Virus record (IMG/VR): IMGVR_UViG_3300044568_006268
Coordinates: 62,001 to 126,000 of that record
From: an uncultured virus (IMG/VR IMGVR_UViG_3300044568_006268)
Taxonomy: Duplodnaviria > Heunggongvirae > Uroviricota > Caudoviricetes
Direction: 5' to 3' (one strand)
DNA length: 64,000 bases
Positions 1,536 through 16,010 of this stretch are shown piece by piece. The notes beneath the pieces were generated by a model that did not search any database, was not told the origin of the DNA, and saw nothing but the letters and a program-made list of their open reading frames with translations. The translations under genes were made by a program, and so were the position numbers. How positions within the stretch are numbered: the stretch's first letter is position 1; the number at the start of each line of letters is the position of its first letter.

Positions 1536-1592
1536 ATCGAAGGTATATTAGGCCATACCAATAACCAGGACCTTTTCCCTAGGGAAATGTCG

Positions 1593-1675
1593 TGACCAAA
1601 GAGGGACTCGAACCCTCACGCTCAAAGAGCACCAGCTTCTTAGACTGGCGTGTCTACCAATTCCACCACTCGGCC
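1593..1675 (-). tRNA. tRNA-Leu(AAG), A34 anticodon
   Basis: Stem CCAGT/GCTGG, loop CT-AAG-AA, long variable arm, GGTTCGAGTCC T-arm. Confidence 0.85.
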
Positions 1676-1803
1676 GTAATGAGCAATCCTATGGAATTAC
1701 TGCAGTTTATCCAAAGGTCGTATATAGCTTGCAGACTAAGATTCTGCTGGATTTTCACCTTCATAAAGCTGGATATCAACGACCCTTATCGCGATTCTCA
1801 TTG

Positions 1804-1877
1804 TACCCGAGATGGGACTCGAACCCACACTGTACAGGGTTTAAGTCTGATGCCTCTTCCAATTGGGCTACCCGGGC
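1804..1877 (-). tRNA. tRNA-Leu(TAA), short variable arm
   Basis: Cloverleaf, loop CT-TAA-AC, imperfect anticodon stem. Confidence 0.8.
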
Positions 1878-2044
1878 AAATTAAAGAAGTAAGAAAATGA
1901 ACTCCTTAACAGCTGAACGTTCAATAACTTTAAGAATCATTTTGCTTGTATCTCTAGGATTTGCAACTCCTATAAATTCACAAAATGCTTTTTGTTTATT
2001 CATTATTGTTCATTTCAATTTTGTTATTGCATTATTAGGAATAA

Positions 2045-2115
2045 CGATACTATAGGACTCGAACCTATACCTTCCAGCTCGCTCGCCGGAATTCTACCAA
2101 ATTAAACTAAATACC
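2045..2115 (-). ncRNA. tRNA-like RNA with non-canonical anticodon loop
   Basis: D-arm and T-arm present; TTCCGGC-GAGCGA-GCTGGAA replaces the 7-nt loop. Confidence 0.6.
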
Positions 2116-2153
2116 AACCTTTTTATCTCAATAACAAAAGATGTCCTTCTTTG

Positions 2154-2226
2154 TACCTAAGGAGGGATTCGAACCCACACTGTCATGCTCCTAAGGCATG
2201 TGCCTCTTCCGTTGGGCTACTTAGGC
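2154..2226 (-). tRNA. tRNA-Leu(TAG)
   Basis: CATGC-CTTAGGA-GCATG. Confidence 0.9.
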
Positions 2227-2434
2227 AAATTGGTAAGTGATGGCCTACTTGTTACCATCTGTCTCTGTTTAGTTGCAACCACTAATCCTGAATGTAGAGA
2301 ACTTACCTTTTGTTTTATGTTAGCTAATAAACATTGTTTCTAATGTTATTAACATCATCTTTTTAATTTTTGTACATTATAATATACATTAAGCCACAAT
2401 ATGACGTGTTTTGTATATTATAGTGTACATTTTG

Positions 2435-2507
2435 AGCTGACAATCAGGATCGAACTGATGACCTCTTCGATACCAACGAAGTGTTCTTCCAACTGAACTA
2501 TGTCTGC
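2435..2507 (-). tRNA. tRNA-Thr(GGT)
   Basis: CTTCG-TTGGTAT-CGAAG. Confidence 0.9.
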
Positions 2508-2513
2508 ATATTA

Positions 2514-2612
2514 CAGGGTTGTTAATTACCTCTTTCGAGGATTTCGGAGTTGAACCGATAGACAAAATTTCAAGTTTCGTGTTTAACCAATAGTTGTTTG
2601 CTGAAACAACCC
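2514..2612 (-). ncRNA. structured RNA: GGGTTGTT-TCAGCAA...AACAACCCTG helix enclosing a tRNA core
   Basis: 8-bp closing helix; internal D-like TGGTTAAAC, CGAAA-CTTGAAA-TTTTG arm, TCGG-TTCAACT-CCGA T-arm. Confidence 0.55.
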
Positions 2613-2617
2613 TTTTG

Positions 2618-2691
2618 AGCTGACAGTCAGGATCGAACTGACTCTGTTCCGGGTTACAAATCCGGTGCACCACCATTCATGCGTTGCCAGC
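2618..2691 (-). tRNA. tRNA-Thr(TGT)
   Basis: CCGGA-TTTGTAA-CCCGG. Confidence 0.85.
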
Positions 2692-2701
2692 ATATGTTTC
2701 G

Positions 2702-2772
2702 TTGGGATACTAGGTTTCGAACCTAGGCGGACTGGCTCAAAACCAGTAATGCTACCGTTACATCATATCCCA
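2702..2772 (-). tRNA. tRNA-Gln(TTG)
   Basis: ACTGG-TTTTGAG-CCAGT. Confidence 0.85.
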
Positions 2773-2778
2773 ATGTAG

Positions 2779-2849
2779 TTATCCGAGGTGGATTCGAACC
2801 ACCAATGACTGCACCAAAAACAGTAGTGTTACCGTTACACTATCGGACA
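2779..2849 (-). tRNA. tRNA-Gln(TTG)
   Basis: ACTGT-TTTTGGT-GCAGT. Confidence 0.9.
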
Positions 2850-2850
2850 G

Positions 2851-2924
2851 TGACCATAATAGGATTCGAACCTATAACCGCTGGTTTAGAAAACCAGTGC
2901 TCTATCCAATTGAGCTATATGGCC
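2851..2924 (-). tRNA. tRNA-Arg(TCT)
   Basis: CTGGT-TTTCTAA-ACCAG. Confidence 0.9.
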
Positions 2925-2995
2925 AATTAAGTTCTCCAACCCTGGAACTTATACATATCATCATTAAGCGGTCACATAGAATGTGAGATATGTTG

Positions 2996-3081
2996 AAGAG
3001 AAGATGGGACTCGAACCCACAAACCGAATTAACGGTTAACGGATTAGCAATCCGCTGCAGTACCATTATGCTTACTTCTCT
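2996..3081 (-). tRNA. tRNA-Ser(GCT)
   Basis: GCGGA-TTGCTAA-TCCGT, long variable arm. Confidence 0.9.
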
Positions 3082-3189
3082 ATAAAAAGTTAAAGGCAGA
3101 ATTCCAAATCTGCATTTTTATTCTAAAACGAGAATAACGTGAGTTTTATCGATACGTCTATCGAGGCAATTATCACTACTTTAACTTAA

Positions 3190-3279
3190 TGGAGGAGAGA
3201 GTGGGATTCGAACCCACGGAACGCTTTCACGCTCAATAGTTTTCAAGACTATCCTAATCAACCTCTCTAGCACCTCTCC
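3190..3279 (-). tRNA. tRNA-Ser(TGA), encoded CCA
   Basis: ATAGT-CTTGAAA-ACTAT, long variable arm. Confidence 0.9.
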
Positions 3280-3285
3280 ATTATT

Positions 3286-3363
3286 TGGGGTGGAAGACGG
3301 GACTCGAACCCGCGATCTCTAGAACCACAATCTAGCGCTTTAACCAACTAAGCTACAACCACC
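3286..3363 (-). tRNA. tRNA-His(GTG), encoded CCA
   Basis: CTAGA-TTGTGGT-TCTAG, G-1. Confidence 0.9.
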
Positions 3364-3374
3364 ATGTATAAAAC

Positions 3375-3409
3375 AAAAAAGCTCGATTCATTTGATAGAA
3401 CCGAGCTTT
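3375..3409 (-). terminator. attenuator terminator C
   Basis: AAAGCTCGGTTC-loop-GAATCGAGCTTTTTTG between leader C and tRNA-His. Confidence 0.85.
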
Positions 3410-3443
3410 GCAATTTAGTATTTATATTTTCACATAAGAACCA

Positions 3444-3518
3444 TCACACTTCGGTACTGTTTTCAGATCTTGTTAGATGCTGAAGCGACGTTAACGATAA
3501 TGTACTTGAAGTTCTCAT
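3444..3518 (-). CDS. leader peptide C, MRTSSTLSLTSLQHLTRSENSTEV
   Basis: Manual translation; codons 2-18 are only R/T/S/L/Q/H, the amino acids of the downstream tRNAs. Confidence 0.85.
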   Translation of the reverse strand: MRTSSTLSLTSLQHLTRSENSTEV

Positions 3519-3550
3519 TGTTTGTAATTTATTATTTTTTATATATACTG

Positions 3551-3578
3551 TTATATGTCTAAAATTGCTGAGAGTTTC
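3551..3578 (-). promoter_or_regulatory. GAAACT-N15-CATATAA promoter, block C
   Basis: Same bipartite motif and spacing at 6140, 9470, 44908 and 56118. Confidence 0.7.
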
Positions 3579-3602
3579 AAAAAACTTTCAATTTATTTTC
3601 TA

Positions 3603-3701
3603 GTGAAGACAATTGGGATCGAACCAATGGCACGCCTATGTTCCTTATCGATCATACCAATAAGTACTGAAGGTTGCTCTACCAACTGAGCTATATCTTC
3701 A
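3603..3701 (-). ncRNA. tRNA-like RNA with expanded anticodon arm
   Basis: Acceptor, D (TAGCTCAGTTGGTAGAGC) and T arms intact; extra CTTATTGGT/ATCGATAAG hairpin in place of the anticodon loop. Confidence 0.7.
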
Positions 3702-3705
3702 TTTG

Positions 3706-3776
3706 TAGCGGATTAAGGACTCGAACCTCGCCATTGGGTTATGAGCCCGATATGCTACCAATTACACTAAACCGCA
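3706..3776 (-). tRNA. tRNA-Met(CAT), initiator-like
   Basis: GGG-CTCATAA-CCC. Confidence 0.8.
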
Positions 3777-3778
3777 AG

Positions 3779-3875
3779 ATGACCTTAAGGATTCGAACCT
3801 TTAACTTGTTTCCTCTTTTAGTTTTGCAAACCTACTCAATTCTACCGTGCCCAATACACTATTGCCAATCGTCAT
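3779..3875 (-). ncRNA. degenerate/expanded tRNA-like RNA (possible GCA loop)
   Basis: AAGGTTCGAATCCTT T-arm, TGAC/GTCA ends, TTGCAAA loop; irregular D region. Confidence 0.4.
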
Positions 3876-3917
3876 TTTCGAACATGACAGCCTTAAGTTA
3901 ATTACTCTTAAGATTTG

Positions 3918-3989
3918 TAGTCCCACCGGGAATCGAACCCGACTTTTCAGGATGAAAACCTGATGACCTAACCGATAGTCGATAGGACC
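3918..3989 (-). tRNA. tRNA-Glu(TTC)
   Basis: TCAGG-TTTTCAT-CCTGA. Confidence 0.9.
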
Positions 3990-4172
3990 AATTAAGTTAT
4001 ATCAAATTCTCCCGCAGAGATACCGACCCATTGCTGAGCCAGAGAGGACTTGAACCTCTGATTCTCAATAACTAATTTAAAAGAATTAAAGAGTAGAGCT
4101 CTTCAACGATTTCGGCATTTCAGCTGGATCTTTATGCCAACTTCCTAATCCTTAGTCCGTTTAATTCTTGTA

Positions 4173-4247
4173 GTATTATGTACGGGACTCGAACCCGTGT
4201 TATCAACGTGAAAGGCTGACGTCCTAGACCAACTAGACGAACATAAC
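4173..4247 (-). tRNA. tRNA-Glu(TTC)
   Basis: TCAGC-CTTTCAC-GTTGA. Confidence 0.9.
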
Positions 4248-4251
4248 ATTT

Positions 4252-4464
4252 TTAAGCTTCTTCAGAGACAAGTCCTAAAACTTCTTCTCTGTAAATTTTA
4301 TTCAATTCACTTACTTCAATATCGATATTCGTTTGTGGATATCGGTGAAGTAAAATCTTAACTAATCTGATTCGTTTCTCAGCCAAATCTTGATTAAAGT
4401 CCATTTCAATCATTGCATCACTTAAATGAGATTGAATTGCGATTGATAATTTGATAGTTTCCAT
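4252..4464 (-). CDS. hypothetical protein
   Basis: 70 aa ORF behind a promoter box at 4488-4546. Confidence 0.65.
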   Translation of the reverse strand: METIKLSIAIQSHLSDAMIEMDFNQDLAEKRIRLVKILLHRYPQTNIDIEVSELNKIYREEVLGLVSEEA

Positions 4465-4558
4465 AATGTGATTGTTTAATTTTAATAAGTAAAACTAATC
4501 AATTTAATTGACATATGGAAATTATTTTTCAAAAAGTTATTAACAATTTTAAAATAAA

Positions 4559-4732
4559 AAGTTTGTCACCGGCACAGATTGGTGAATACCCAAGTACAAC
4601 CGAATGTACCCGATACCTTACTAACAAAATGAACGGATCTGTGTTTCCTGTATGCGGCAAGTGACCTCCTTCCTTGCTTGTGTTTCCGTATCGATGTGTG
4701 CGGCAACATACCATTTTGAGTTCAACAAACTT
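4559..4732 (-). ncRNA. candidate structured ncRNA
   Basis: Closing helix AAGTTTGTT/GACAAACTT; internal repeat TTGCCGCA...GGAAACACA twice; directly 3' of tRNA-Met. Confidence 0.45.
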
Positions 4733-4736
4733 CTTG

Positions 4737-4809
4737 TAGCGGGAGCAGGACTCGAACCTGCGACCTTTGGGTTATGAGCCCACTGAGCTACCAACTGCTC
4801 TATCCCGCA
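4737..4809 (-). tRNA. tRNA-fMet(CAT)
   Basis: GGG-CTCATAA-CCC, unpaired 1:72. Confidence 0.9.
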
Positions 4810-4835
4810 ATATACCTTTTAAGTAGAACCATCAA

Positions 4836-5027
4836 CTATATTTCTGTTGATGATTCTAATTGTCTTAATTTTAAACCTTCTTCAATTGTTTGAATGATGT
4901 CCTCAATTATTTGAGCTCGCGTAACATCAAAGTTACCATTCATTCCATTCAAATCTTTTGCATCAATTGCAATAGATCCTACTGACTTACCGTCTTTCTG
5001 TAATTCAATTACTAATGTATCAAACAT
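4836..5027 (-). CDS. hypothetical protein
   Basis: 63 aa ORF. Confidence 0.6.
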   Translation of the reverse strand: MFDTLVIELQKDGKSVGSIAIDAKDLNGMNGNFDVTRAQIIEDIIQTIEEGLKLRQLESSTEI

Positions 5028-5092
5028 AATATAGCTTTTTATTTAATTGTTTTATGCAATTTGAAATAAATTGTTTCTCTTCTTATTAACAT

Positions 5093-5551
5093 CTATCTAC
5101 AGATTCTATCAGCTACATATGAAGCCGAGCATGCATCTGGTTTACATCTAGCGTTATAACCTAATGATTCTACATAACCTAAAGCAGAACGCAGAATTGA
5201 ATTAGATTGATACTTAGGGTCTGGATTAAAATCCAAATCAATAAATGCAGGTTTTTCAATATCATTAGCTTCAAGCCATTGAGCTAATTCAACTGAATCT
5301 TCTACCTCTTTCCAAAGTCTAGTAAATCTATCTAAGATTCTAGGAATTGATTTACGAGAGTAGATAACGTGACCTCCTCGATTACCGTAATGTAAAACAA
5401 TAACCATTGCGTAAATTGTATTTCTTCCAATATTTTGCGAATCTGAACCGATATACATTTTGATGTCTTTACCAGTTGCGAGTTTGTCCTTTAAATAAGG
5501 AATTAAGTCAATTACTTGACCGTTTGTTAACGATTGAAATTTCCGGTCCAT
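5093..5551 (-). CDS. RNase H-like YkuK (DUF458) family protein
   Basis: YIGSDSQ ... EVEDS ... IDLD ... KPDA.SASYVAD pattern. Confidence 0.8.
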   Translation of the reverse strand: MDRKFQSLTNGQVIDLIPYLKDKLATGKDIKMYIGSDSQNIGRNTIYAMVIVLHYGNRGGHVIYSRKSIPRILDRFTRLWKEVEDSVELAQWLEANDIEKPAFIDLDFNPDPKYQSNSILRSALGYVESLGYNARCKPDACSASYVADRICR

Positions 5552-5571
5552 GATTATTAAATTTATGTTAG

Positions 5572-5642
5572 AGGCGAGTATAGGATTCGAACCTATGTAA
5601 CTGATTTTGCAGACCAGCGCCTAACCGCTCGGCCAACTCGCC
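5572..5642 (-). tRNA. tRNA-Cys(GCA)
   Basis: CTGGT-CTGCAAA-ATCAG. Confidence 0.9.
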
Positions 5643-5647
5643 ATTTG

Positions 5648-5719
5648 TGACTCTAGAGAGACTCGAACTCCCATCTCCTGATCCGTAGTCAAGTGTTCTA
5701 TCCATTGAACTATAGAGCC
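5648..5719 (-). tRNA. tRNA-Arg(ACG)
   Basis: CTTGA-CTACGGA-TCAGG. Confidence 0.9.
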
Positions 5720-5728
5720 ATTATTTTG

Positions 5729-5801
5729 TCGGGAAGACAGGACTCGAACCTGCGGCCTCATGCTCCCAAAGCACGCGATCTACCAACTGATCTACTTCCC
5801 G
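5729..5801 (-). tRNA. tRNA-Pro(TGG)
   Basis: CGTGC-TTTGGGA-GCATG. Confidence 0.9.
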
Positions 5802-5848
5802 TGGCAGAGAGGCTTTTGAAGTGCCCTGCTAGTTCATCTTTTAATTTG

Positions 5849-5922
5849 TCGAATAGACAGGAATCGAACCTGCTAACTGATACGTCCAAGGTACCCGTGC
5901 TTAAAACCTTAGTCACTACTCG
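5849..5922 (-). tRNA. tRNA-Pro(TGG), divergent
   Basis: GGTAC-CTTGGAC-GTATC. Confidence 0.75.
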
Positions 5923-5931
5923 TTTAAAAAC

Positions 5932-5967
5932 AAAAAAGCCTGAATCGGTTGAATGATTCAGGCTTTT
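5932..5967 (-). terminator. attenuator terminator B
   Basis: AAAAGCCTGAATC-loop-GATTCAGGCTTTTTTG between leader B and tRNA-Pro. Confidence 0.85.
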
Positions 5968-5988
5968 ATATGATGATGTTACTTTATA

Positions 5989-6084
5989 TCATTCAAAAAC
6001 CTGCATACCATTCTCACATGCCTCAGGACGAGGGCATTCTACTGTTAACTGCGATGTTGTTAGTATGTGTGAAAGTATTAACAT
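5989..6084 (-). CDS. leader peptide B, MLILSHILTTSQLTVECPRPEACENGMQVFE
   Basis: Manual translation; ECPRPEACENGM matches the downstream Pro, Arg(ACG), Cys, Met and Glu tRNAs. Confidence 0.8.
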   Translation of the reverse strand: MLILSHILTTSQLTVECPRPEACENGMQVFE

Positions 6085-6139
6085 TTTAATTTTTATTAGC
6101 AAAGACTCTTTATCTTTGTTTAGTTCTTTTATATATCTT

Positions 6140-6167
6140 TTATATGTTCCGTTATTGCGGAAGTTTC
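6140..6167 (-). promoter_or_regulatory. GAAACT-N15-CATATAA promoter, block B
   Basis: Repeated bipartite motif. Confidence 0.7.
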
Positions 6168-6328
6168 AAAATTATTTTATTCTTTTCTATTTGTGCTTTA
6201 ATCTTAGCAATCTTTTCTGGACTAGGATTTCTATCTATCGTATACGAAACACCCATCTTGTCCATGTAATCGTAAAGAAGTTGCATATCTTCATTAGTAG
6301 TTTTAGTTGTTTTCATAATAACTATTTG

Positions 6329-6402
6329 AGCGGATATTCGGATTCGAACCGAAACTTCAGACTTGGAAGGCCCACGTGCTAGCCGTTAAACACCATACCC
6401 GC
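6329..6402 (-). tRNA. tRNA-Gly(TCC)
   Basis: loop CT-TCC-AA. Confidence 0.88.
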
Positions 6403-6412
6403 ATTTTGTTTG

Positions 6413-6485
6413 AGCAATAAATCAGATTCGAACTGACGACCTCTACCTTGGCAAGGTAATGCTCTACCAACTGAGCTATTATTGC
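6413..6485 (-). tRNA. tRNA-Gly(GCC)
   Basis: TTACC-TTGCCAA-GGTAG. Confidence 0.9.
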
Positions 6486-6552
6486 ATTTGAAGGACTTGC
6501 ACCTTCTGGACATGGTTTGTTTCGCCTAAGTCGCCATGTCAACAGACCCGAG

Positions 6553-6624
6553 AGGGCAGAGTGAGATTCGAACTCACGACCAGTTGATTAACAGTCAACT
6601 GCTCTACCGCTGAGCTATCCACCC
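6553..6624 (-). tRNA. tRNA-Asn(GTT)
   Basis: GTTGA-CTGTTAA-TCAAC. Confidence 0.88.
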
Positions 6625-6630
6625 TTATTG

Positions 6631-6741
6631 CAGGAATGTAAGGAATCGAACCTTAGCATCTTCCGAGACAGGGAGTAATTTATGCAGAATACAATCTTCG
6701 CAGATTGAGTTTTAAGCGTGCTACCATTACACCACATTCCT
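6631..6741 (-). ncRNA. tRNA-Asp(GTC)-like RNA with a 40-nt insertion (6674-6713) in the anticodon stem
   Basis: Removing the insert gives CTTCC-CTGTCTC-GGAAG; G73 discriminator. Confidence 0.65.
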
Positions 6742-6749
6742 GTATTTTG

Positions 6750-6866
6750 TGGGCTCATATGGGCTCGAACCATAATCTCTTCCTAATGACATCCTACCAT
6801 ACTAAAAAGGAATCGAACCTTAGACTCATTATCGAGAAAGCGCTTTGCCAATTAAGCTAATCGCCC
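6750..6866 (-). ncRNA. tRNA-like RNA with a second, permuted T/D elbow in place of the anticodon loop
   Basis: Outer cloverleaf arms; inner TAATGA[AAGGTTCGATTCCTT...TAGTATGGTAGGATG]TCATTA. Confidence 0.65.
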
Positions 6867-6872
6867 ATGTAG

Positions 6873-7004
6873 TGAAGAATCCTAGACTCGAACTAGGAAT
6901 GTCAATTAAGACGCCGGTTTTACATCCTTTAAATTGCTGAATAAACACTTTGCACAGTGTTTGCCTTTTTGGACCGGAGCGTTTACCAATTCCGCCAATT
7001 CTTC
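6873..7004 (-). ncRNA. tRNA-Tyr(GTA)-like RNA with a 47-nt insertion (6925-6971) in the anticodon loop
   Basis: Removing the insert gives CCGGT-CTGTAAA-ACCGG; G1:C72, A73, long variable arm. Confidence 0.7.
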
Positions 7005-7011
7005 ATTATTG

Positions 7012-7083
7012 TTCTCCCGCTGGGAGTCGAACCCAGCCTCATAGATTAAAAGTCTATTGCCCACACCAGTCTGCTACGAGAGA
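7012..7083 (-). tRNA. tRNA-Lys(TTT), divergent
   Basis: ATAGA-CTTTTAA-TCTAT. Confidence 0.8.
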
Positions 7084-7169
7084 TTGTAAAGTTTTCTATT
7101 GCCAACCTCTCAACAGTGTAGAGTATTGACCTATCTATGTTTTCGCTTCATGTTCATTATATTATTTAG

Positions 7170-7243
7170 TGGCCAAGCCTGGACTCGAACCAGGGACCTT
7201 CGCATTATGAGTGCGCCGCTCTAACCAACTGAGCTACATGGCC
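7170..7243 (-). tRNA. tRNA(CAT), Ile2 or elongator Met
   Basis: CGCA-CTCATAA-TGCG. Confidence 0.85.
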
Positions 7244-7359
7244 AAAAATGTAGGGTTATCCGGTACCTACACTGATTAATGACAATCAGACCATCGTTCA
7301 CCACCTGTAAGAGCCTAACGATAGATACTGTACTTGCTTACACTCAAGTATCCGCTGGG

Positions 7360-7433
7360 TAGCGAGGACCGGGATCGAACCGGCGACCTTTGGTTTATGA
7401 ATCCAATGTTACTACCAACTGAACTACCTCGCC
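7360..7433 (-). tRNA. tRNA-Met(CAT), elongator
   Basis: loop TT-CAT-AA. Confidence 0.85.
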
Positions 7434-7472
7434 AAATTGTAAGTTTTGAATGGACTTACAACCATTGATAGA

Positions 7473-7703
7473 TTATTGGTGATGAGGAATATACTTTCCG
7501 TTCTTAACTCTAACTGCCAGTTTGGTCACGTTAAAATTCCAACAATCAAATGTACTTAATGCAGATCTTTGTTTTGCAAGACTAATGGCTTGCTTTTCTG
7601 CTTTTTCTCGACCTTCTTCCGTTGTTTCGACGAAAAAAGTGGGAGCCTGAACACCAGTCTTACTGGTAGGAACTACTCTCCAAATTCTCAAATTAGTAAT
7701 CAT
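7473..7703 (-). CDS. hypothetical protein
   Basis: 76 aa ORF. Confidence 0.6.
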   Translation of the reverse strand: MITNLRIWRVVPTSKTGVQAPTFFVETTEEGREKAEKQAISLAKQRSALSTFDCWNFNVTKLAVRVKNGKYIPHHQ

Positions 7704-7783
7704 AAGTTTTAGCTAAGCTAGACCTATGAGGAATTGTACGATTTTGTTGACATTTGATTTATATTTTTTTATTATATGTTCGA

Positions 7784-8230
7784 TTAAGCCAGAGATTCAA
7801 TAACCTCTTTTACTAATTTTGTATCGGCAAGACCTGGAAATTTCTTAACGAAAGCACCCATAGTCATACCTATTAATTTTTGTTTGTTTAATTCTAAAAC
7901 AGAACCGAGTAAAACATTAACTTCAGTTTCAATTTCAGCTCTAGTCATTTGCTTTGGCAAGTACTTTTCAATAACACCTAATTCATTAGCTTCAGATTCC
8001 ACTAAATCGAATCGACCAGCTTTTGTAAATTCTTCAATAGATTGTCTACGTTGTTTGATTGTAGAAATTACTGCATTTAGAACTAACTCATCAGTAAGTG
8101 GACCAGCATGCTTTGCCTTTTCAGCATCTTGGATTTTTGCCTTTAATCCACTTAATGCATTCTTCGCAATCGCGTTTTTCTCTTTGAATGCTACTATATA
8201 GTCAGCATTGATTGTTTCTCTTAAATTCAT
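7784..8230 (-). CDS. GatB/YqeY domain protein
   Basis: KQRRQSIEEF..AGR.DL...E..EL..IEKYLPKQM signature. Confidence 0.9.
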   Translation of the reverse strand: MNLRETINADYIVAFKEKNAIAKNALSGLKAKIQDAEKAKHAGPLTDELVLNAVISTIKQRRQSIEEFTKAGRFDLVESEANELGVIEKYLPKQMTRAEIETEVNVLLGSVLELNKQKLIGMTMGAFVKKFPGLADTKLVKEVIESLA

Positions 8231-8246
8231 CTTTACTAATTTTTAG

Positions 8247-8327
8247 TGGGCAACAGTGGACTCGAACCACTCCCGTGAGGACCAGATTTACAGTCTGGCT
8301 GCCGTATCCGAACGACTTTTGCGGCCC
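8247..8327 (-). tRNA. tRNA-Tyr(GTA)
   Basis: CCAGA-CTGTAAA-TCTGG. Confidence 0.85.
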
Positions 8328-8336
8328 ATTATATTG

Positions 8337-8410
8337 TGACTCCTCTGGGACTCGAACCCAGGACTCCCTCATTAAAAGTGAGGTGCTCTAGCCGACTGAG
8401 CTAAGAAGTC
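8337..8410 (-). tRNA. tRNA-Lys(TTT)
   Basis: CCTCA-CTTTTAA-TGAGG. Confidence 0.9.
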
Positions 8411-8420
8411 ATTGTAATAG

Positions 8421-8494
8421 CAGTCCTAACGGAATTCGAATCCGCAATCTCTTCCGTGACAGGGAAGCGTCATACGCCAATATGCTGTAGGACT
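8421..8494 (-). tRNA. tRNA-Asp(GTC)
   Basis: CTTCC-CTGTCAC-GGAAG. Confidence 0.85.
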
Positions 8495-8581
8495 ATATAA
8501 AAATTATTTAGTTTAAGCTCCTTTAAACCATGTAATTTCAGGGAGCTATTTGAGCTTATGCATGGAACTAAATAATAATTG

Positions 8582-8655
8582 CCGAGATGACGGGACTCGA
8601 ACCCGTGACCTTCGCCGTGACAGGGCGACATTGTAACCAACTCTACTACACCTCG
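8582..8655 (-). tRNA. tRNA-Asp(GTC)
   Basis: TCGCC-CTGTCAC-GGCGA. Confidence 0.9.
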
Positions 8656-8710
8656 ATTTCTAATTTCACGCTCACACTATGCAGTTCTATAAATTAGTAA
8701 CAGTCTCATC

Positions 8711-8788
8711 TGGGCTCTCCTGACTGGATTCGAACCAGTAACCCTCACCTTAACAGGGTGTCGCTCTAACCGTTGGAGCTACAGGAGA
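8711..8788 (-). tRNA. tRNA-Asn(GTT)
   Basis: CACC-CTGTTAA-GGTG. Confidence 0.9.
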
Positions 8789-8873
8789 ATATTTGATGTT
8801 TTAATTATAAGACAAATATAAACAATGTCATTGACATATGAAAATATTTAATCAAATAGTTATTAACAATTTG

Positions 8874-8945
8874 TGGAGCTACCGGGATTCGAACCCGGAA
8901 TAACAGAGTGCAAGTCTATCGTGATGCCAATTTCACTATAGCCCC
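8874..8945 (-). tRNA. tRNA-Ala(TGC)
   Basis: loop CT-TGC-AC, G3:U70. Confidence 0.9.
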
Positions 8946-8955
8946 ATTAAATTTG

Positions 8956-9030
8956 TAGGAGATGACGGAATCGAACCGACGACCTTTTGCGTGTAAAACA
9001 AACGCTCTAAACCAACTGAGCTAATCTCCT
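8956..9030 (-). tRNA. tRNA-Val(TAC)
   Basis: TTTGT-TTTACAC-GCAAA. Confidence 0.9.
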
Positions 9031-9036
9031 AAATTG

Positions 9037-9110
9037 TAGGTAATATGAGACTCGAACTCATAACCTCCTCGGTATCAGCGAGGTGCTCTAACCAATTGAG
9101 CTAACTACCT
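9037..9110 (-). tRNA. tRNA-Ile(GAT)
   Basis: CCTCG-CTGATAC-CGAGG. Confidence 0.9.
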
Positions 9111-9117
9111 GTGGCAG

Positions 9118-9188
9118 CACGAATGGAAGGATTCGAACCTTCATCGACGGTTTTGGAGACCGGCATGCTACCATTGCACCACACTCGT
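9118..9188 (-). tRNA. tRNA-Trp(CCA)
   Basis: CGGT-CTCCAAA-ACCG. Confidence 0.9.
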
Positions 9189-9195
9189 ATTTTAG

Positions 9196-9268
9196 TGGTA
9201 AGGGACGGGATCGAACCGTCATCATCGGATTTTCAGTCCGCTGCATAGACCAACTTTGCTACCTCACC
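9196..9268 (-). tRNA. tRNA-Phe(GAA)
   Basis: CGGA-CTGAAAA-TCCG. Confidence 0.9.
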
Positions 9269-10104: not shown

Positions 10105-11421
10105 TTAACCTTCAGCTTCTTCGGTATCAATTACTCCAGAATCTTTTACGATTCCTTCAAGTACTTTGAATTCGAAAGACTTGAATTTGAATGTTTTGTT
10201 TACCAAACCACCTTCAATTCTTACACAAACTCCTTCTTTGATATGTCTAGTATCTAAGATAGATGGACCAGTTCCGAATGTTTCGACGGTGTTGCTGAAA
10301 TATTCTCGCAAATCTCTATCATCGAATTTATGAGTGATTGCTTCTAATTCGTTTAAGGTTATCGTAGCAACATGTGGTACAGTTTTTACACCTAATTCAT
10401 TACAACGTTTTACAACATCATTCCAAGCATAATCGATAGATTGACCATCTTCATTAGCAAATGTCATACGGTAAACATAAACCTCAGATTGAGTAGGTTC
10501 ACAACCATAAGAATAAGCCATAGACTTACCGTATTGTTTCGTAAACTCTTTATCACCCATTTTGGTTGTATCAACAGATGGCATAATTGCAGCTCCTGTA
10601 GATTCGTAACCTACAATTTCAAAATAAACGGTTTCACCTTTTCTTAAGTTACCTTTGAATAAGTTCATTGCTTTATCTCGGATGGTTGGGTCATGGAATT
10701 GATTTGCGGATTTTGATTCTCCTAAAACAACTCTACGAGTACCATTCAAATAAGCCCATTCTTTGTCGTTGATAGCTAATCCAAATTTAGTAACAAGTTT
10801 TTCTAACCAACCTAATTCTCTAGTCATTTGAACGTGACCAATACGACCTGAAGTACCGTGAAGTTTTTCAGTAATAATGATGTGTTGACCCTTTTCAAAT
10901 TCGTGGATACTCTTACCAAAGTGTCCGGTATCAAAATGTTCTTTGAACATTACAGAAGATCTAGAAACTCGGGTTTTCTTACCTTGATTTTCTCTAGCAA
11001 TTTTAGCCGTATTTGGATTTACATATTTGTTACAGATAGGTACACCTTTCCATTCGTCAAATTCAAATCCTTCTACATCTAAACCAGTTACCATAATGAA
11101 TCCAAAGTAATGTAATGGAACCCAGAAACCATCAGAGATTTCACCTCTAAATTTTTGAGCTCTTACTCTTCGGTTTGCATCGAACATTCCACCTTTCTCA
11201 TCTTTTCTAGCATTTAACTCGGCATCACGATAAAGGTTGTTTGCTTTACAGAACTCATCGGATAACTGACCATCAGATGGAAAGTAAACTCCTAAATGTC
11301 CTTCTAAAGAATCTAAACCAATTACTACTTGATTACCGTGACAAGTTGCTAATTGAACTTTGTCTGCGTTAGGATGTGGTCTCACGTTTGTCAACCTAGT
11401 GACGATTGCATTGTATGCCAT
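10105..11421 (-). CDS. RNA ligase, DRB0094/Rnl2-like, with N-terminal tRNA-binding OB fold
   Basis: HPNADK N-domain; TEKLHGTS motif I; EGVCVR motif IV; FKFKS motif V. Confidence 0.85.
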   Translation of the reverse strand: MAYNAIVTRLTNVRPHPNADKVQLATCHGNQVVIGLDSLEGHLGVYFPSDGQLSDEFCKANNLYRDAELNARKDEKGGMFDANRRVRAQKFRGEISDGFWVPLHYFGFIMVTGLDVEGFEFDEWKGVPICNKYVNPNTAKIARENQGKKTRVSRSSVMFKEHFDTGHFGKSIHEFEKGQHIIITEKLHGTSGRIGHVQMTRELGWLEKLVTKFGLAINDKEWAYLNGTRRVVLGESKSANQFHDPTIRDKAMNLFKGNLRKGETVYFEIVGYESTGAAIMPSVDTTKMGDKEFTKQYGKSMAYSYGCEPTQSEVYVYRMTFANEDGQSIDYAWNDVVKRCNELGVKTVPHVATITLNELEAITHKFDDRDLREYFSNTVETFGTGPSILDTRHIKEGVCVRIEGGLVNKTFKFKSFEFKVLEGIVKDSGVIDTEEAEG

Positions 11422-11507
11422 GATTTCGTATTTTTAATTTATAAGACAAATATAATCAATGTCTTCGACACTTGAAAATAATTTCTCATTAAGTTATTAA
11501 CAATTAG

Positions 11508-11618
11508 TAGTCAGAACAGGATTCGAACCTGTATGGTGTTACCTAGAGTACTCAATACAGAGCGGTAAATCGGTTACGAACCATTACTCTTAGCGTCTTC
11601 CAATTCCGCCACCTGACT
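11508..11618 (-). ncRNA. isolated tRNA-like RNA with expanded, anticodon-less arm
   Basis: AGTCAGG/TCTGACT acceptor, TGGCGGAATTGGAAGACGC D-arm, ACAGGTTCGAATCCTGT T-arm. Confidence 0.7.
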
Positions 11619-11634
11619 CGATAGAACTAGCCTA

Positions 11635-11985
11635 TCATGATTGTGTAGATTTAATGTACACAATTATTCCAATGATTGAAAGAAAGCACAATGCTAATAC
11701 TGTTATTGCAGGTAAATAATCTTCTTTCTCTCTCCAAATTTTGTAATTATATCGAGGTTCGTTCTGCTTCCACGAATGGTCTTCAGACTTCTCAGACTTA
11801 ACATATTTTTTGTTTAGTTTTTTTAGGGATTTCCTAATTTCCTTTTTACATGGTTCAGCACCACAACAATAAAAAAATGATATATCTGTTTCGCTTATCA
11901 GCTTAGTAGTAGCTTCTTCCTCGCAACAATAACAATAATTTGGTTTCATATTAATACTCTTTAATGAGTACGGTACCATCTCCAT
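11635..11985 (-). CDS. Cys-rich protein with C-terminal TM (likely start about 11949)
   Basis: CxCC...CC..xxC and a hydrophobic tail. Confidence 0.55.
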   Translation of the reverse strand: MEMVPYSLKSINMKPNYCYCCEEEATTKLISETDISFFYCCGAEPCKKEIRKSLKKLNKKYVKSEKSEDHSWKQNEPRYNYKIWREKEDYLPAITVLALCFLSIIGIIVYIKSTQS

Positions 11986-12817
11986 GCTCTAAACAGTCAA
12001 CGCAAAAGATAGTGTCTTTTACTTCTGGCCATCTACCAGCAGTCGGTTCAGTATCGTATTCAGTTACTTTGTGATGGGGTGTATGTCCGATTACTTGGTC
12101 ATAACCTTCTAATGCATCCCATCTTAATCTTCTCGGTCTAATCCAAACAGGACCTGCAAATTCTGAATATCCACCAGAATCTCCATCTACGTTAAATAAA
12201 ATATTTAAACGATATTGCCAAGCTTTATTGATAATCTCATCCGGCCTAAGATTCCAATCTCCTTCAAAATCTGCTTTGAATCGGAAACCGTCTCTTTTAA
12301 CCGTTGCATGCAATTGGCGTAACCAACCATGAGTTACTCCAGCATGAGTCCATAAAGTTCGCTTTAACCTACCATCGATTTCTCTTTCATGATAATATGC
12401 GAAAGTAAATTTGTCGATGTTTTTAGTAAACAACTCTTGAAAATCAAATTTCATTTCAGGTCGATAACCTGAACAGATTTGATCGGCTACAATATATTGA
12501 ATATCGTGATTTCCTAAAAGCAAGACTATTTTGTCTGGATATTCGGTTTTTAAATGTATGATTTCCTCTAGATTTAATTTCATCTCTAGGTTTTGTACAT
12601 CAAATGAATCTACGTAATCTCCAACGAAAACGATTTTATCCATTTCGTTAAAAATAGGATAGGTGTCTTCAAACGCTTCTTTTGCTCCGTTATCTACTTC
12701 CTGTCTCCAGCTATTATAGTCCGTTAGAGAGCCGAATAACACAGTCTTCCAGGTATTTCTTCCGTGGATATCTCCGATAGACATGATTTTCATTGTAGTT
12801 TTCATTTTATGGTTCAT
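11951..12817 (-). CDS. calcineurin-like metallophosphoesterase
   Basis: GDIHG, GDYVD, GNHD, HAG, GHT motifs. Confidence 0.9.
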   Translation of the reverse strand: MNHKMKTTMKIMSIGDIHGRNTWKTVLFGSLTDYNSWRQEVDNGAKEAFEDTYPIFNEMDKIVFVGDYVDSFDVQNLEMKLNLEEIIHLKTEYPDKIVLLLGNHDIQYIVADQICSGYRPEMKFDFQELFTKNIDKFTFAYYHEREIDGRLKRTLWTHAGVTHGWLRQLHATVKRDGFRFKADFEGDWNLRPDEIINKAWQYRLNILFNVDGDSGGYSEFAGPVWIRPRRLRWDALEGYDQVIGHTPHHKVTEYDTEPTAGRWPEVKDTIFCVDCLEHGDGTVLIKEY

Positions 12818-13468: not shown

Positions 13469-14071
13469 TTAATACTCTTTTCGAAGTGCTTGGATTACGT
13501 CCCAAGCATCTTCTAATGCATCATGAGTTACTGCACCAGGAATTCCACCTCGTTCTTTGCATTCGTTCAATGATGGCAATGCATAATCATTTGCCCAATC
13601 TACATAAAGAATAGATGGGTCTAAAATTCTGTTTCTAAACTTAATACATTTCTTAAATGCTGGTAATCTTTCTAGGAACAATTTATCGAAGGTTCCAAAG
13701 TTTTTACCTGCTACGTTAATAGTCAATTGTTCACCATATTCACCGAAACCATTGTCTACTAAGAATTGATGAAGTAAATTTACTGCTTCTGCAGGACTTC
13801 TGAATTCCATACCAGTTTTTTCAATCAACTCACATCTAACATCTTTCTTACTGATTAGGTATTTATTGATGTTTGCAATTAAGTCTTTGTTCATGTTAAT
13901 TGCAAAATGAGAACCTTCAATTCTTTCGTGTAGCAAAGCAACGTGGAATTTAGGAAGCTCCTGATATGGGAGCTTCGTTTTCGTATCTTCTATGATTGCA
14001 CCAATAGAAAGAATTTGGTCGCGTTTAGAATCGATTCCTGTGGTTTCGATGTCGATTGAAACGTATTTCAT
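13469..14071 (-). CDS. DEDDh 3'-5' exonuclease
   Basis: IDIETTG, N.G.FD, HDALEDA. Confidence 0.88.
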   Translation of the reverse strand: MKYVSIDIETTGIDSKRDQILSIGAIIEDTKTKLPYQELPKFHVALLHERIEGSHFAINMNKDLIANINKYLISKKDVRCELIEKTGMEFRSPAEAVNLLHQFLVDNGFGEYGEQLTINVAGKNFGTFDKLFLERLPAFKKCIKFRNRILDPSILYVDWANDYALPSLNECKERGGIPGAVTHDALEDAWDVIQALRKEY

Positions 14072-14864: not shown

Positions 14865-16010
14865 TTAGTCTTCAATTACTTCTTCGATAAATTGTTCAAC
14901 ATCTGAGTCGAAGTCTTCCTCATCTGGTGTTTTGTCAGTGATACCGAAGATTTTGTTAAACTTAGCTTCTTCAGAAAGTAAGATTTCCTTTTCTTTCTGA
15001 AGACGTTTCTTAATATCATCGTCTCTATCTAGACGTTTTTGGTCGTATTCAACTTCGTTTACGTTATCTAAAGAGAAGTAAATCTTTTCATGTTTAAATC
15101 CTCGACGGTTTTTAGTTACTTTTGCGTATCTATCACCAGAGAATTCAGATGAATATCGAAGTTCAATCATTCCGGTAGTATTGTGTTTTAATTTATTGGA
15201 TCCTACGAAATTACCACCTTTGGTAACTTGTTGAATCGCTAAAAATGAAGTGTATTTGTTTTCGGCATTTTTACCTTTATTGTTTTGGACCATTATATCA
15301 ATCATCCATTTTTCAGCTTGAGTACGATTCATTCCTGAAGAAGCTTGAATAGATTCTTGAACCTCGACGAAGGAGTCGATAAGTATAATATCCCATCCTT
15401 GATTGTAGGTTGATTCTAATACTTCGGCAGCATTATCATCGAGATAATCACAAAGAAATAATGTAGGGATTTTACCGAAAGCTGGATATCGTTGAACATA
15501 ACCAAACATATCGATATCGTTCATTTCGCCTGAGATAAATAAGACCTTTTTAGAAGGGTCGTTTTTCTTGATTTTTGCAAGGATATCAAGAGTTTGAGTA
15601 GATTTACCAATTCCTGGGTCACCTATAATCATGTAGTTTGTAGCAGGATAGATTCCACCTTCAGATGAAAACATATAGTCGATTGAATCGTTAGTTTTCA
15701 TTGGAATAAAGATTGAAGGGTCGTAAGATAAATCAGCAACTTGTACTAAGTTAATTTTTACTGGAGTTTTAATCATAGGATTTACGGTAGAAGTCGAAGT
15801 TTTTCCTTTGAAAGGTACGATGAAATATTCATCTTTTTTATCTGAATTGGATTTTAAAACCCAGTGTTGATTTGAACGATACATTCCTTGGAATGTAAAA
15901 TCAGTGTTTTCGAATTGTTCGCCTATCGTGTATTGATTTGCGAATTTAGAAGCCTGAAAACGTTTTTGGCATTTAATAAGGATTGCGTTTGAAGTTTCGA
16001 TTCTTTCCAT
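14865..16010 (-). CDS. RadA/Sms-like RecA-fold ATPase
   Basis: GDPGIGKST, ISGE, LIDS, QVTKGG.F.G...LKH, KNRRG. Confidence 0.85.
   Translation of the reverse strand: MERIETSNAILIKCQKRFQASKFANQYTIGEQFENTDFTFQGMYRSNQHWVLKSNSDKKDEYFIVPFKGKTSTSTVNPMIKTPVKINLVQVADLSYDPSIFIPMKTNDSIDYMFSSEGGIYPATNYMIIGDPGIGKSTQTLDILAKIKKNDPSKKVLFISGEMNDIDMFGYVQRYPAFGKIPTLFLCDYLDDNAAEVLESTYNQGWDIILIDSFVEVQESIQASSGMNRTQAEKWMIDIMVQNNKGKNAENKYTSFLAIQQVTKGGNFVGSNKLKHNTTGMIELRYSSEFSGDRYAKVTKNRRGFKHEKIYFSLDNVNEVEYDQKRLDRDDDIKKRLQKEKEILLSEEAKFNKIFGITDKTPDEEDFDSDVEQFIEEVIED

What the first reader, a model, noticed from the sequence alone, without database searches (positions are those of the whole stretch)
6631..7004. tRNA-Tyr and tRNA-Asp genes interrupted by related 40-47 nt inserts
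Deleting 6925-6971 restores a perfect Tyr(GTA) arm (G1:C72, A73, long variable arm). Deleting 6674-6713 restores CTTCC-CTGTCTC-GGAAG, Asp-like with G73. Both inserts share a module: a hairpin NNNNCTG-loop-AGNNNN followed by ATTC(A/T)GCA (AAACACTG..AGTGTTT-ATTCAGCA; CAATCTG..AGATTG-TATTCTGCA). They are too short for group I introns and show no clear bulge-helix-bulge. They could be protein-spliced introns (an RNA ligase is at 10105), or protein-docking modules on tRNA scaffolds or decoys.
Basis: partly seen in the sequence, partly recalled or inferred. Interest (0 to 1): 0.75.

Follow-up and report, generated by a model that had tools for sequence, protein, structure and literature searches.

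The report
Hairpin mini-inserts splitting phage tRNA genes
Two tRNA genes of a large lake phage are each interrupted, just before the anticodon, by a related 40-47-base hairpin element that recurs in tRNA genes of other big phages, and it is either a new kind of tRNA intron or a built-in RNA tag.

Summary
Gene A (6873-7004, minus) is a tRNA-Tyr(GUA) body with a 47-nt insert at 6925-6971. Gene B (6631-6741, minus) is a tRNA-Asp(GUC) body with a 40-nt insert at 6674-6713.

Both inserts carry one module: a 6-7-bp hairpin closed by U-A with a G...A loop, followed by UUC(A/U)GCA.

I found the same module in 12 more tRNA-like genes from other phage and metagenome contigs. They include Ile, Lys, Gln, Pro and UCA bodies, and the insert always lies between nucleotides 28 and 33. 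One 363-kb phage has four copies with an identical stem.

One contiguous deletion restores a perfect anticodon arm in 12 of 15 genes tested (shuffles: 0.5-5%). Gene A keeps its insert in strain variants and in a 71%-identity relative, with compensatory stem changes. Gene B lies in a strain-specific block and would have U37.

The inserts fit no known intron class: no bulge-helix-bulge, no group I core, no Rfam family, no splicing endonuclease in the phage. No RNA data were obtained.

Best reading (about 45%): mobile mini-introns cut by an unknown nuclease and sealed by the phage RNA ligase. Rivals: unspliced tRNA-scaffold RNAs, or selfish inserts. The scan found other hairpin mini-introns in lake phages before, with different sequences.

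The parts
6873..7004 (-). Gene A: class II tRNA-Tyr(GUA)-like gene carrying the insert. 5' exon 6972-7004, 3' exon 6873-6924.
   Evidence: Rfam tRNA 39.1 bits. ARAGORN with introns allowed: Tyr(gta) i(34,47). Strict deletion test gives CCGGU-CUGUAAA-ACCGG.
6925..6971 (-). Insert A, 47 nt, between tRNA nucleotides 32 and 33.
   Evidence: The uninterrupted relative L155 reads CCGGU-CUCGAAA-ACCGG at the same place.
6943..6962 (-). Hairpin of insert A: AAACACU-GUGCAA-AGUGUUU.
   Evidence: Strain variants change only the loop.
6934..6941 (-). Motif UUCAGCAA of insert A.
   Evidence: Identical in L004 and L177.
6631..6741 (-). Gene B: class I tRNA-Asp(GUC)-like gene carrying the insert.
   Evidence: Rfam tRNA 45.8 bits. 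The restored arm equals that of the intact Asp gene at 8421-8494 except for position 37.
6674..6713 (-). Insert B, 40 nt, in the 5' strand of the anticodon stem (after nucleotide 29, or 28 by sliding).
   Evidence: Uninterrupted relatives L178 and L181 read GCACGCUUCC...GGAAG.
6692..6707 (-). Hairpin of insert B: CAAUCU-GCGA-AGAUUG.
6682..6689 (-). Motif UUCUGCAU of insert B.
6742..6872 (-). Region E: degenerate tRNA-like pieces between A and B (a D arm and two T arms, but no good acceptor stem). Together with B it is part of a strain-specific block.
   Evidence: Partial Rfam tRNA match at 6806-6859, 20.7 bits. ARAGORN finds nothing. The block is absent in L159. No homolog among fetched loci.
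10105..11421 (-). RNA ligase (OB domain plus nucleotidyltransferase domain), the candidate sealing enzyme.
   Evidence: PF21189 + PF09414. PHROG 968. PF09414 is present in 5 of 5 module-bearing phage records searched.
11951..12817 (-). Metallophosphoesterase, a possible RNA end-healing enzyme.
   Evidence: PF00149. A homolog lies near the ligase in the 363-kb phage G006.
8421..8494 (-). Intact tRNA-Asp(GUC), used as the reference for B's anticodon arm.
   Evidence: Rfam 41.9 bits, arm CUUCC-CUGUCAC-GGAAG.

Best explanation
The inserts belong to a family of small (40-50 nt), probably mobile intervening sequences that live in the tRNA genes of large freshwater phages.

Each insert sits on the 5' side of the anticodon (nucleotides 28/29 to 32/33). 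Each carries a recognition module: a short hairpin closed by U-A with a GNNA-like loop, then C(A/U)GC(A/G)A, then an A/U-rich tail.

Inferred mechanism, not shown here:
- The array is transcribed, and RNase P and RNase Z release a roughly 130-nt precursor.
- A protein that reads the module cuts at both exon borders. Its identity is unknown; it is neither an EndA-type enzyme nor a known ribozyme.
- The phage RNA ligase (10105-11421), perhaps after end healing by the neighbouring phosphoesterase, joins the exons.
- For inserts inside the stem (gene B and the Ile, Lys, Gln and Pro cases), the joined ends would form a nick in a duplex. For gene A the join is in the loop, between C32 and U33.

Shown here: the insert borders, the module and its recurrence, the intact exons, and the presence of the ligase. 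Inferred: transcription, cutting and sealing.
For: 1. Recurrence. I found the module in 14 tRNA-like genes. Two are in the window. The rest are L159, L004, L177, four in the 363-kb phage G006, and L198, L199, L203, L204 and L205. The bodies read Tyr, Asp, UCA, Ile, Lys, Gln and Pro.

2. Multiple copies in one genome. In G006 the hairpin GAUUCUU-GNNA-AAGAAUC occurs 4 times exactly, all in the tRNA array; the reversed-pattern control gave 0. The flanks differ and only the two middle loop bases vary.

3. Intact exons. My strict test asked whether one contiguous deletion yields a 5-bp stem and a 7-nt loop with U33 and R37. It was met in 12 of 15 genes. One of the 12 (G006 12203-12319) carries another type of insert. 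One (G006 13499-13626) passes only in a register without nucleotide 26. Shuffled controls reach this in 14-30 of 3000 runs for class I bodies and 114-143 of 3000 for class II bodies. The restored loops fit their isoacceptors, for example UUUGGGU for Pro and CUGAUAA for Ile.

4. Long-term maintenance of A. Between the window and L004 (ligase 71% identical), all 7 acceptor pairs differ yet all still pair. The 27-43 pair, one T-stem pair and the variable-arm stem also change in a compensatory way. The 27-43 pair reads C-G, U-A, G-C and A-U across four lineages.

5. Hairpin covariation. There are four unrelated stem sequences, all paired and all closed by U-A with a G...A loop. Strain variants of A differ only in the loop.

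6. The other Tyr gene in the window (8246-8327) is not recognised by Rfam's tRNA model. Gene A may therefore be the better tRNA-Tyr.

7. A PF09414 RNA ligase is present in 5 of 5 module-bearing phage records searched. A ligase plus phosphoesterase pair lies near the arrays in both G001 and G006.
Against: - I have no RNA evidence at all. The one RNA run laid did not cover the region.
- No endonuclease candidate emerged. PF01974 is absent from the 294-kb record. The PF04308 protein sits in the arrays of G001 and G008, but I found none in the 96%-complete G006. A blastp comparison of neighbourhoods found no shared array protein.
- There is no bulge-helix-bulge and no consistent splice-site consensus. 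Distances from the module to the borders vary (7-10 nt and 9-14 nt).
- Three of the 15 tested genes do not restore a canonical loop: L004 has A33 or C33, gene B has U37, and L177 fails.
- One G006 copy (L195 11725-11853) simply caps a stem with the module and has no anticodon at all (1 of 1302 deletions gives an ARAGORN call).
- Interrupted genes are mostly extra copies. G006 also has intact Ile(GAU) x2 and Lys(UUU), and the window has two intact Asp genes.
- L004's copy has U1-A72 and G73, which is not Tyr identity (the identity rules are recalled).
- RNA ligases are common in phages without introns, and I ran no module-free control set.
- ARAGORN alone is lax: 290 of 1426 arbitrary deletions of A still give some tRNA call.
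Confidence: 0.45

Rival explanations
1. The RNAs are not spliced. The tRNA body serves as a stable, RNase P/Z-processed scaffold, and the hairpin-CAGCRA module is the working part. It could be a docking site for a phage or host protein, or a decoy that presents an anticodon arm to a host anticodon nuclease while being useless for translation.
For: - The module's sequence, not only its structure, is conserved. The stem is identical in four otherwise different G006 inserts, and UUCAGCAA is identical in A, L004 and L177.
- One G006 copy has the module in place of the anticodon loop.
- Other tRNA-like genes in these arrays have no anticodon at all yet keep covarying stems. Examples are window 3603-3700 against its L002 homolog and L176.
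- Interrupted genes are usually duplicates of intact isoacceptors, which would suit a decoder-plus-decoy arrangement.
- With inserts at 28/29 or 29/30, the top of the anticodon stem and the loop remain contiguous, so an anticodon arm can form without splicing.
- The 'anticodon' and the discriminator base are not conserved among homologs of A.
Against: - In A-type genes the insert splits C32 from U33, so no normal loop exists unless the insert is removed. Yet the split loop is canonical in A, L159, G006 13499-13626 and L156.
- The distal two or three exon bases stay perfectly complementary to the 3' strand across 45-50 nt.
- I identified no binding partner.
Confidence: 0.3
2. The module is a selfish DNA element that inserts into redundant tRNA gene copies and is not removed. 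The hit copies are dead or dying, and the exons look intact only because the insertions are recent or because of recombination with intact copies.
For: - Gene B and the degenerate pieces beside it are absent from a close strain (L159).
- B has U37, L004 lacks U33 and L177 is non-canonical.
- The interrupted genes are extra copies.
- Region E next to B is clearly degenerate.
- The module sits in different tRNA bodies at slightly different positions, as a mobile element would.
Against: - Gene A has kept a perfect cloverleaf, with about 10 compensatory pair changes, since its split from L004.
- Ortholog pairs L198/L203 and L199/L204 keep the same perfect anticodon arm despite indels in the insert.
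- The four G006 copies have diverged flanks but an identical stem, which indicates selection rather than recent copying.
- I saw no insert-free allele of A in three DNA runs.
Confidence: 0.2

Closest known systems
'Enigmatic' introns in tRNA genes of Lak megaphages (Devoto et al. 2019, PMC6784885; preprint 10.1101/356790)
   Same: These are also insertions in phage tRNA genes, including Tyr(GTA). Their sequence is conserved across cohorts, they have no known splicing route, and they occur in very large phages with big tRNA arrays. I read passages of the preprint and Table S6.
   Different: The Lak Tyr intron shown in Table S6 is 93 nt long, is placed after position 37 by a eukaryotic tRNA finder, and contains a tRNA-like T arm. 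I saw no hairpin-CAGCRA module in the one sequence I viewed. The inserts here are 40-50 nt and lie 5' of the anticodon.
Archaeal protein-spliced tRNA introns and their 'intron transposition' in Thermoproteales (Fujishima et al. 2010, as summarised in PMC4090602, passage read)
   Same: [quoted passage not shown] No self-splicing. Exons are rejoined by a ligase.
   Different: The archaeal introns are defined by a bulge-helix-bulge at the borders and by the EndA endonuclease. Here I found no BHB and no PF01974 in the phage, and a conserved internal module instead. The host is most likely a bacterium.
Group I self-splicing introns in bacterial tRNA anticodon loops (Reinhold-Hurek and Shub 1992, seen only in the reference list of PMC4090602; PMC3984707 seen as a search listing)
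   Same: An intervening sequence in the anticodon region of bacterial or phage tRNA genes, and mobile.
   Different: Group I introns are several-fold longer, about 200 nt or more (recalled), with a P1-P9 catalytic core. The inserts here are 40-50 nt with one hairpin, and there is no Rfam group I hit.
Phage T4-type tRNA repair (PrrC anticodon nuclease countered by Pnkp and Rnl1; recalled, and mentioned in PMC4090602)
   Same: A phage-encoded RNA ligase and an end-healing enzyme beside a tRNA cluster, acting on breaks in the anticodon region.
   Different: That system repairs damage and removes nothing. The ligase here belongs to a different family (PF09414 with an N-terminal OB domain).

Membership tests
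tRNA (Rfam RF00005) | Cloverleaf body scoring at or above the 29-bit gathering score. | tested here: met
   A scores 39.1 bits and B 45.8 bits, each with a large insertion in the anticodon region. These matches appeared only in the sensitive E-value search, not in the gathering-mode run.
tRNA (functional decoder as encoded) | A contiguous 7-nt anticodon loop on a 5-bp stem. | tested here: not met
   As encoded, the loop of A and the stem of B are interrupted. Standard ARAGORN misses both genes.
Archaeal/eukaryal protein-spliced tRNA intron | Bulge-helix-bulge motif at the exon-intron borders. | tested here: not met
   I checked both BHB arrangements by hand on A, L156, G006 14891-15013 and L198, and found no 4-bp central helix flanked by 3-nt bulges.
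Archaeal/eukaryal protein-spliced tRNA intron | EndA/Sen-type splicing endonuclease available. | tested here: not met
   PF01974 gave 0 matches in 3 records, including the 294-kb, 91%-complete phage record. The host genome is unknown and was not tested.
Archaeal/eukaryal protein-spliced tRNA intron | Excision demonstrated at the RNA level. | not testable with these tools
   The only RNA run laid (X21) had no cover on 6628-7160.
Group I intron | A catalytic core (P3-P9) and a length of about 200 nt or more. | tested here: not met
   The inserts are 40-50 nt. No Intron_gpI or other ribozyme match at E<=10 in the region around A and B. In the G006 array at E<=1 the only ribozyme row is a sub-threshold Hairpin-meta2 match (15 bits against a gathering score of 210, E 0.7) that does not overlap any module-bearing gene.
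Lak-megaphage 'enigmatic' tRNA introns | Sequence or architecture shared with the published Lak introns. | tested here: inconclusive
   I saw only one Lak Tyr intron sequence (Table S6). It differs in length, position and content. I did not compare the other Lak introns.
YrlA / bacterial Y RNA (tRNA mimic) | Match to RF02553, and a permuted topology with a Ro-binding helix. | tested here: not met
   Only 14.2 bits at 6601-6656, against a gathering score of 69. Here the 5' and 3' ends lie at the acceptor stem, as in ordinary tRNA.

The most novel reading that the evidence does not exclude
Large freshwater phages have a tRNA splicing system of their own. It would consist of a mobile 40-50-nt mini-intron, marked by a sequence-specific hairpin and a CAGCRA box, that is cut out by an undescribed nuclease and sealed by the phage RNA ligase. 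This would be a third route of tRNA splicing, beside group I self-splicing and EndA/BHB splicing, and the first protein-dependent one in a bacterial setting.
Probability: 0.4. Interest if true: 0.9.

Novelty: new variant of a known kind. Interest (0 to 1): 0.75.

Why it matters
Bacteria and their phages are thought to have only self-splicing tRNA introns. The 'enigmatic' introns reported in Lak megaphages have remained unexplained.

This finding gives a defined, recurring sequence module, exact borders, multiple isoacceptors and several phage lineages. That turns a curiosity into a testable system.

- If the inserts are spliced, there is an unknown nuclease-ligase pathway to find. A short portable RNA tag that directs precise excision could also be useful as a tool.
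- If they are not spliced, phages make a class of tRNA-scaffolded RNAs that may act in the conflict over tRNAs between phage and host.

Either way, standard annotation misses these genes. ARAGORN at default settings and Rfam at its gathering-mode filters both skipped A and B.

Tried and rejected
- **Loose insert pattern in viral contigs.** It returned 117 or more stretches. By BLAST only the window's own contig and L004 were true matches, so the rest are chance. Two stricter patterns found only those two contigs.
- **The 8-mer ATTCWGCA as a genome-wide signal.** It occurs at chance frequency. The pattern 'hairpin plus TTCWGCA' in the 294-kb record gave 4 hits. Two of them are A and B; the other two are unrelated (a terminator-like hairpin and a coding region).
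- **RNA evidence.** Run X21 had no cover over 6628-7160, so it says nothing either way. I saw no insert-free DNA joint in X3, X4 or X6.
- **Splicing endonuclease PF01974.** No match.
- **PF04308 RNase H-like protein (5093-5551) as a candidate nuclease.** It is present in G001 and G008. I found none in G006 (96% complete) or in the fragments G007 and G009, so it is not universal.
- **Shared neighbours by blastp.** Only the ligase, phosphoesterases and a few unrelated proteins are shared.
- **PDB sequence searches with the ligase and the phosphoesterase.** No hits.
- **Known RNA families for the module.** None.
- **Stop-codon recoding,** as an explanation for the 'Stop(tta)' tRNA-like gene. The standard code already gives 77% ORF cover.
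- **Phage isolate database.** Only generic tRNA matches and a Flavobacterium-phage endolysin match.
- **Restoration by ARAGORN as proof of an intron.** Rejected, because the program is too lax. I replaced it with the strict test.
- **Covariation counting on the alignments.** MAFFT put the hairpins and one anticodon strand out of register, so I did not run the count of structure pairs. The covariation statements are read directly from the sequences.
- **Covariance model R1.** It found all tRNAs, but it usefully flagged the long insert-bearing ones.
- **Possible guide pairings.** Pairing between the intron tail and the 5' border is strong in L198 and L203 (7 bp) but weak or absent in B, L177 and L199. 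I did not adopt it.
- **Earlier-finding look-ups** by sequence and by place: nothing.

Full report
**Setting.** The window is part of a 294-kb uncultured phage contig (91% complete by the record's estimate). DNA runs that hold it are lake-water metagenomes. An endolysin resembles those of Flavobacterium phages.

Positions 1592-9268 hold a tRNA array, all on the minus strand. ARAGORN finds 35 genes at default settings and 38 with introns allowed. Just upstream of the array, in the direction of transcription, lie an RNA ligase (10105-11421; PF21189 OB domain plus PF09414; PHROG 968) and a metallophosphoesterase (11951-12817). The standard genetic code fits the window.

**The observation.** Default ARAGORN and Rfam's gathering-mode run leave 6625-7010 empty. 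The sensitive Rfam search finds two tRNA matches there:
- 6873-7004 at 39.1 bits
- 6631-6741 at 45.8 bits

Each has about 50 unaligned bases in the anticodon region.

It has G1-C72, A73 and a long variable arm.

Gene B. Removing 6674-6713 gives stem CUUCC/GGAAG and loop CUGUCUC. The window's intact tRNA-Asp at 8421-8494 reads CUUCC-CUGUCAC-GGAAG. B is therefore an Asp gene with its 5' stem strand split, plus an A37-to-U change.

Uninterrupted relatives confirm the insertion points:
- L178 and L181 read GCACGCUUCC...GGAAG.
- L155 reads CCGGU-CUCGAAA-ACCGG where A has C32, the insert, then U33.

The two inserts share a hairpin closed by U-A with a G...A loop, followed after one or two bases by UUC(A/U)GCA. 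The cores are 18/25 identical, and 34 of 5000 shuffles reach that score. The 8-mer by itself is at chance frequency.

The sequence is real. Contigs from runs X3 and X4 match it with no differences, and a variant contig in X6 keeps insert A.

**Relatives of gene A.**
- L004 (ligase 71% identical) has the homolog with a 46-nt insert. Compared with the window, all seven acceptor pairs differ yet all still pair. The 27-43 pair, one T-stem pair and the variable-arm stem change in a compensatory way. The insert keeps AAACACUGU, UUCAGCAAUUU and GUAAAACCG. One hairpin pair is broken, the discriminator is G73, and the restored loop would have A33 or C33.
- L159 is a strain variant. It keeps the insert, with changes only in the hairpin loop, as does the X6 contig. 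In L159, gene A is followed directly by tRNA-Asn. The window's block of about 245 nt that holds region E (6742-6872) and gene B is missing there. B is therefore not conserved even among close strains.
- Region E has a D arm and two T arms but no proper acceptor stem, and it has no homolog among the fetched loci.

**The module is widespread.** Searching with the D-arm-to-anticodon-stem sequence, rather than with the insert, found further cases.
- The 363-kb phage G006 has a class II gene (L148 306-433, the same as L195 13499-13626). Its anticodon stem covaries, and its 47-48-nt insert lies in the same place. The hairpin there is different (AGAUUCUU-GAUA-AAGAAUU) and is followed by GGACAGCAA.
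- L177 and L179 have gene B's D arm, with the hairpin GAUCCU-GUAA-AGGAUA followed by CGUUCAGCAA.

Covariance model R1 then flagged other long tRNA-like genes in G006. Three more of them carry the same hairpin stem. The exact pattern occurs 4 times in G006, all in the array, and the reversed-pattern control gave 0.

The same hairpin type occurs in three more large phage contigs, in Gln(UUG) and Pro(UGG) genes.

In total I aligned 14 module-bearing genes. Their common features are:
- four unrelated stem sequences, all paired
- loops GNNA, or G...A
- a box reading C(A/U/G)GC(A/G)(A/U)
- a 5' linker of 7-10 nt and an A/U-rich tail of 9-14 nt
- the insert always between nucleotides 28 and 33

A weaker relative (L156, L162, L167) shares the box and the insertion place but not the hairpin form.

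**Are the exons intact?** ARAGORN is too permissive to answer this: 290 of 1426 arbitrary deletions in A still give some tRNA call.

I therefore asked a stricter question. Does one contiguous deletion, anchored at nucleotide 27, give a 5-bp stem (at most one G-U pair), a 7-nt loop with U33 and a purine at 37, and a normal variable region?
- Twelve of 15 genes pass.
- One pass (G006 12203-12319) has a different kind of insert.
- One pass (G006 13499-13626) holds only in a register without nucleotide 26.
- Shuffled segments pass in 14-30 of 3000 trials for class I bodies and 114-143 of 3000 for class II bodies.
- The failures are L004, L177 and gene B. B fails only because of U37.
- The fourth G006 copy (L195 11725-11853) was not in this test. 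By eye, the module simply caps a stem and no anticodon arm exists.

The exons are thus mostly intact, with loops that fit their isoacceptors. But the interrupted genes are usually extra copies of intact ones.

**What it is not.**
- No Rfam family other than tRNA reaches its gathering score over A, B or any module-bearing gene; the rest are weak sub-threshold rows.
- The inserts are about a quarter of the length I recall for a group I intron.
- I found no bulge-helix-bulge in either arrangement.
- PF01974 is absent from the phage record.
- The PF04308 RNase H-like protein inside the array is not universal.
- No array protein is shared between G001 and G006.
- PF09414 ligases are present in 5 of 5 module-bearing records searched. 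Such ligases are common, and I ran no control set.

**Reading.** Three things argue against simple decay for gene A and for most other copies:
- the tRNA bodies are maintained
- the exon halves stay complementary across 45-50 nt
- A-type loops are canonical even though they are physically split

The sequence-level conservation of the module points to a reader that recognises sequence. The clearest case is the identical stem in four otherwise diverged G006 inserts.

The simplest account is a mobile mini-intron whose module recruits a cutting and sealing machinery. For stem-located inserts, the product of cutting would be a nicked duplex, a natural ligase substrate.

The main rival is that the RNAs stay whole and the module is the payload on a tRNA scaffold. 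The anticodon-less G006 copy favours this, as do other anticodon-less tRNA look-alikes in these arrays.

A selfish, unspliced insertion fits gene B and region E best.

My odds are 45% spliced intron, 30% unspliced scaffold and 20% selfish insertion, with the rest unassigned. No step of expression or processing is shown here.

**Literature.**
- Devoto et al. reported 'enigmatic' introns in Lak megaphage tRNAs, including Tyr. I read passages of the preprint and saw one sequence from Table S6. That intron is 93 nt long and unlike the ones here.
- A review describes related introns at many positions in archaeal tRNAs as 'intron transposition' dependent on the BHB motif (passage read).
- Five full-text searches for phage tRNA introns, plus one on viral tRNA introns, listed no paper whose title or abstract start describes this module or a protein-dependent tRNA splicing route in phages or bacteria.

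**Earlier notes of this scan.** They describe other hairpin mini-introns and insert-bearing tRNA look-alikes in lake phages, with different sequences.

Noticed in passing
window 3603-3700 (-), and L002:7270-7382: A tRNA-like gene (Rfam tRNA 44.4 bits) with a long 'anticodon arm': a 3-bp outer stem, a 6x6 internal loop and a 5-7-bp inner stem. Against the L002 homolog, the acceptor and outer stem change in a compensatory way while the apical 11-12-nt loop is completely different. There is no conserved anticodon.
   Followed up: partly
window 11507-11618 (-), and L002:1845-1972: A tRNA-like gene just upstream of the RNA ligase (Rfam 31.1 bits). ARAGORN reads it as 'Stop(tta)' with a 15-nt hairpin insert at about the same 32/33 place. 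The 99%-identical L002 copy lacks the first 16 nt. The standard code fits the window, so a working suppressor is doubtful.
   Followed up: partly
window 8246-8327 (-): The 'intact' tRNA-Tyr(gta) called by ARAGORN is not found by Rfam's tRNA model. Only tRNA-Sec matches, at 26 bits and below threshold. It has an acceptor mismatch and an odd D arm.
   Followed up: partly
window 2044-2116 (-): A tRNA with a four-base anticodon call (agcg) and an 8-nt loop (ARAGORN; Rfam 36.3 bits).
   Followed up: no
window about 6626-6871: A block of about 245 nt (region E plus gene B) that is present here and in runs X3 and X4 but absent in strain variant L159, where gene A abuts tRNA-Asn. It is an indel of tRNA-like genes between close strains.
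   Followed up: yes
window 5093-5551 (-) and 7784-8230 (-): Two protein genes sit inside the tRNA array. One is PF04308 RNase H-like (YkuK family). The other is a YqeY/GatB-like protein (PHROG annotation 'tRNA amidotransferase').
   Followed up: partly
L195:12203-12319 (-), L176, and L151/L154/L157/L165/L166/L174: Other kinds of rebuilt anticodon arms in phage and metagenome tRNA-like genes. These are a 46-nt insert of another type in G006, a 7-bp stem with a tetraloop in place of the anticodon arm (L176), and a group with the acceptor stem of window 11507-11618 and an elaborate arm.
   Followed up: no
L173 (791-kb metagenome contig): An uninterrupted class II tRNA with CCA encoded and the loop CUUUAAA. 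Its anticodon is UUA, which would read the UAA stop codon.
   Followed up: no
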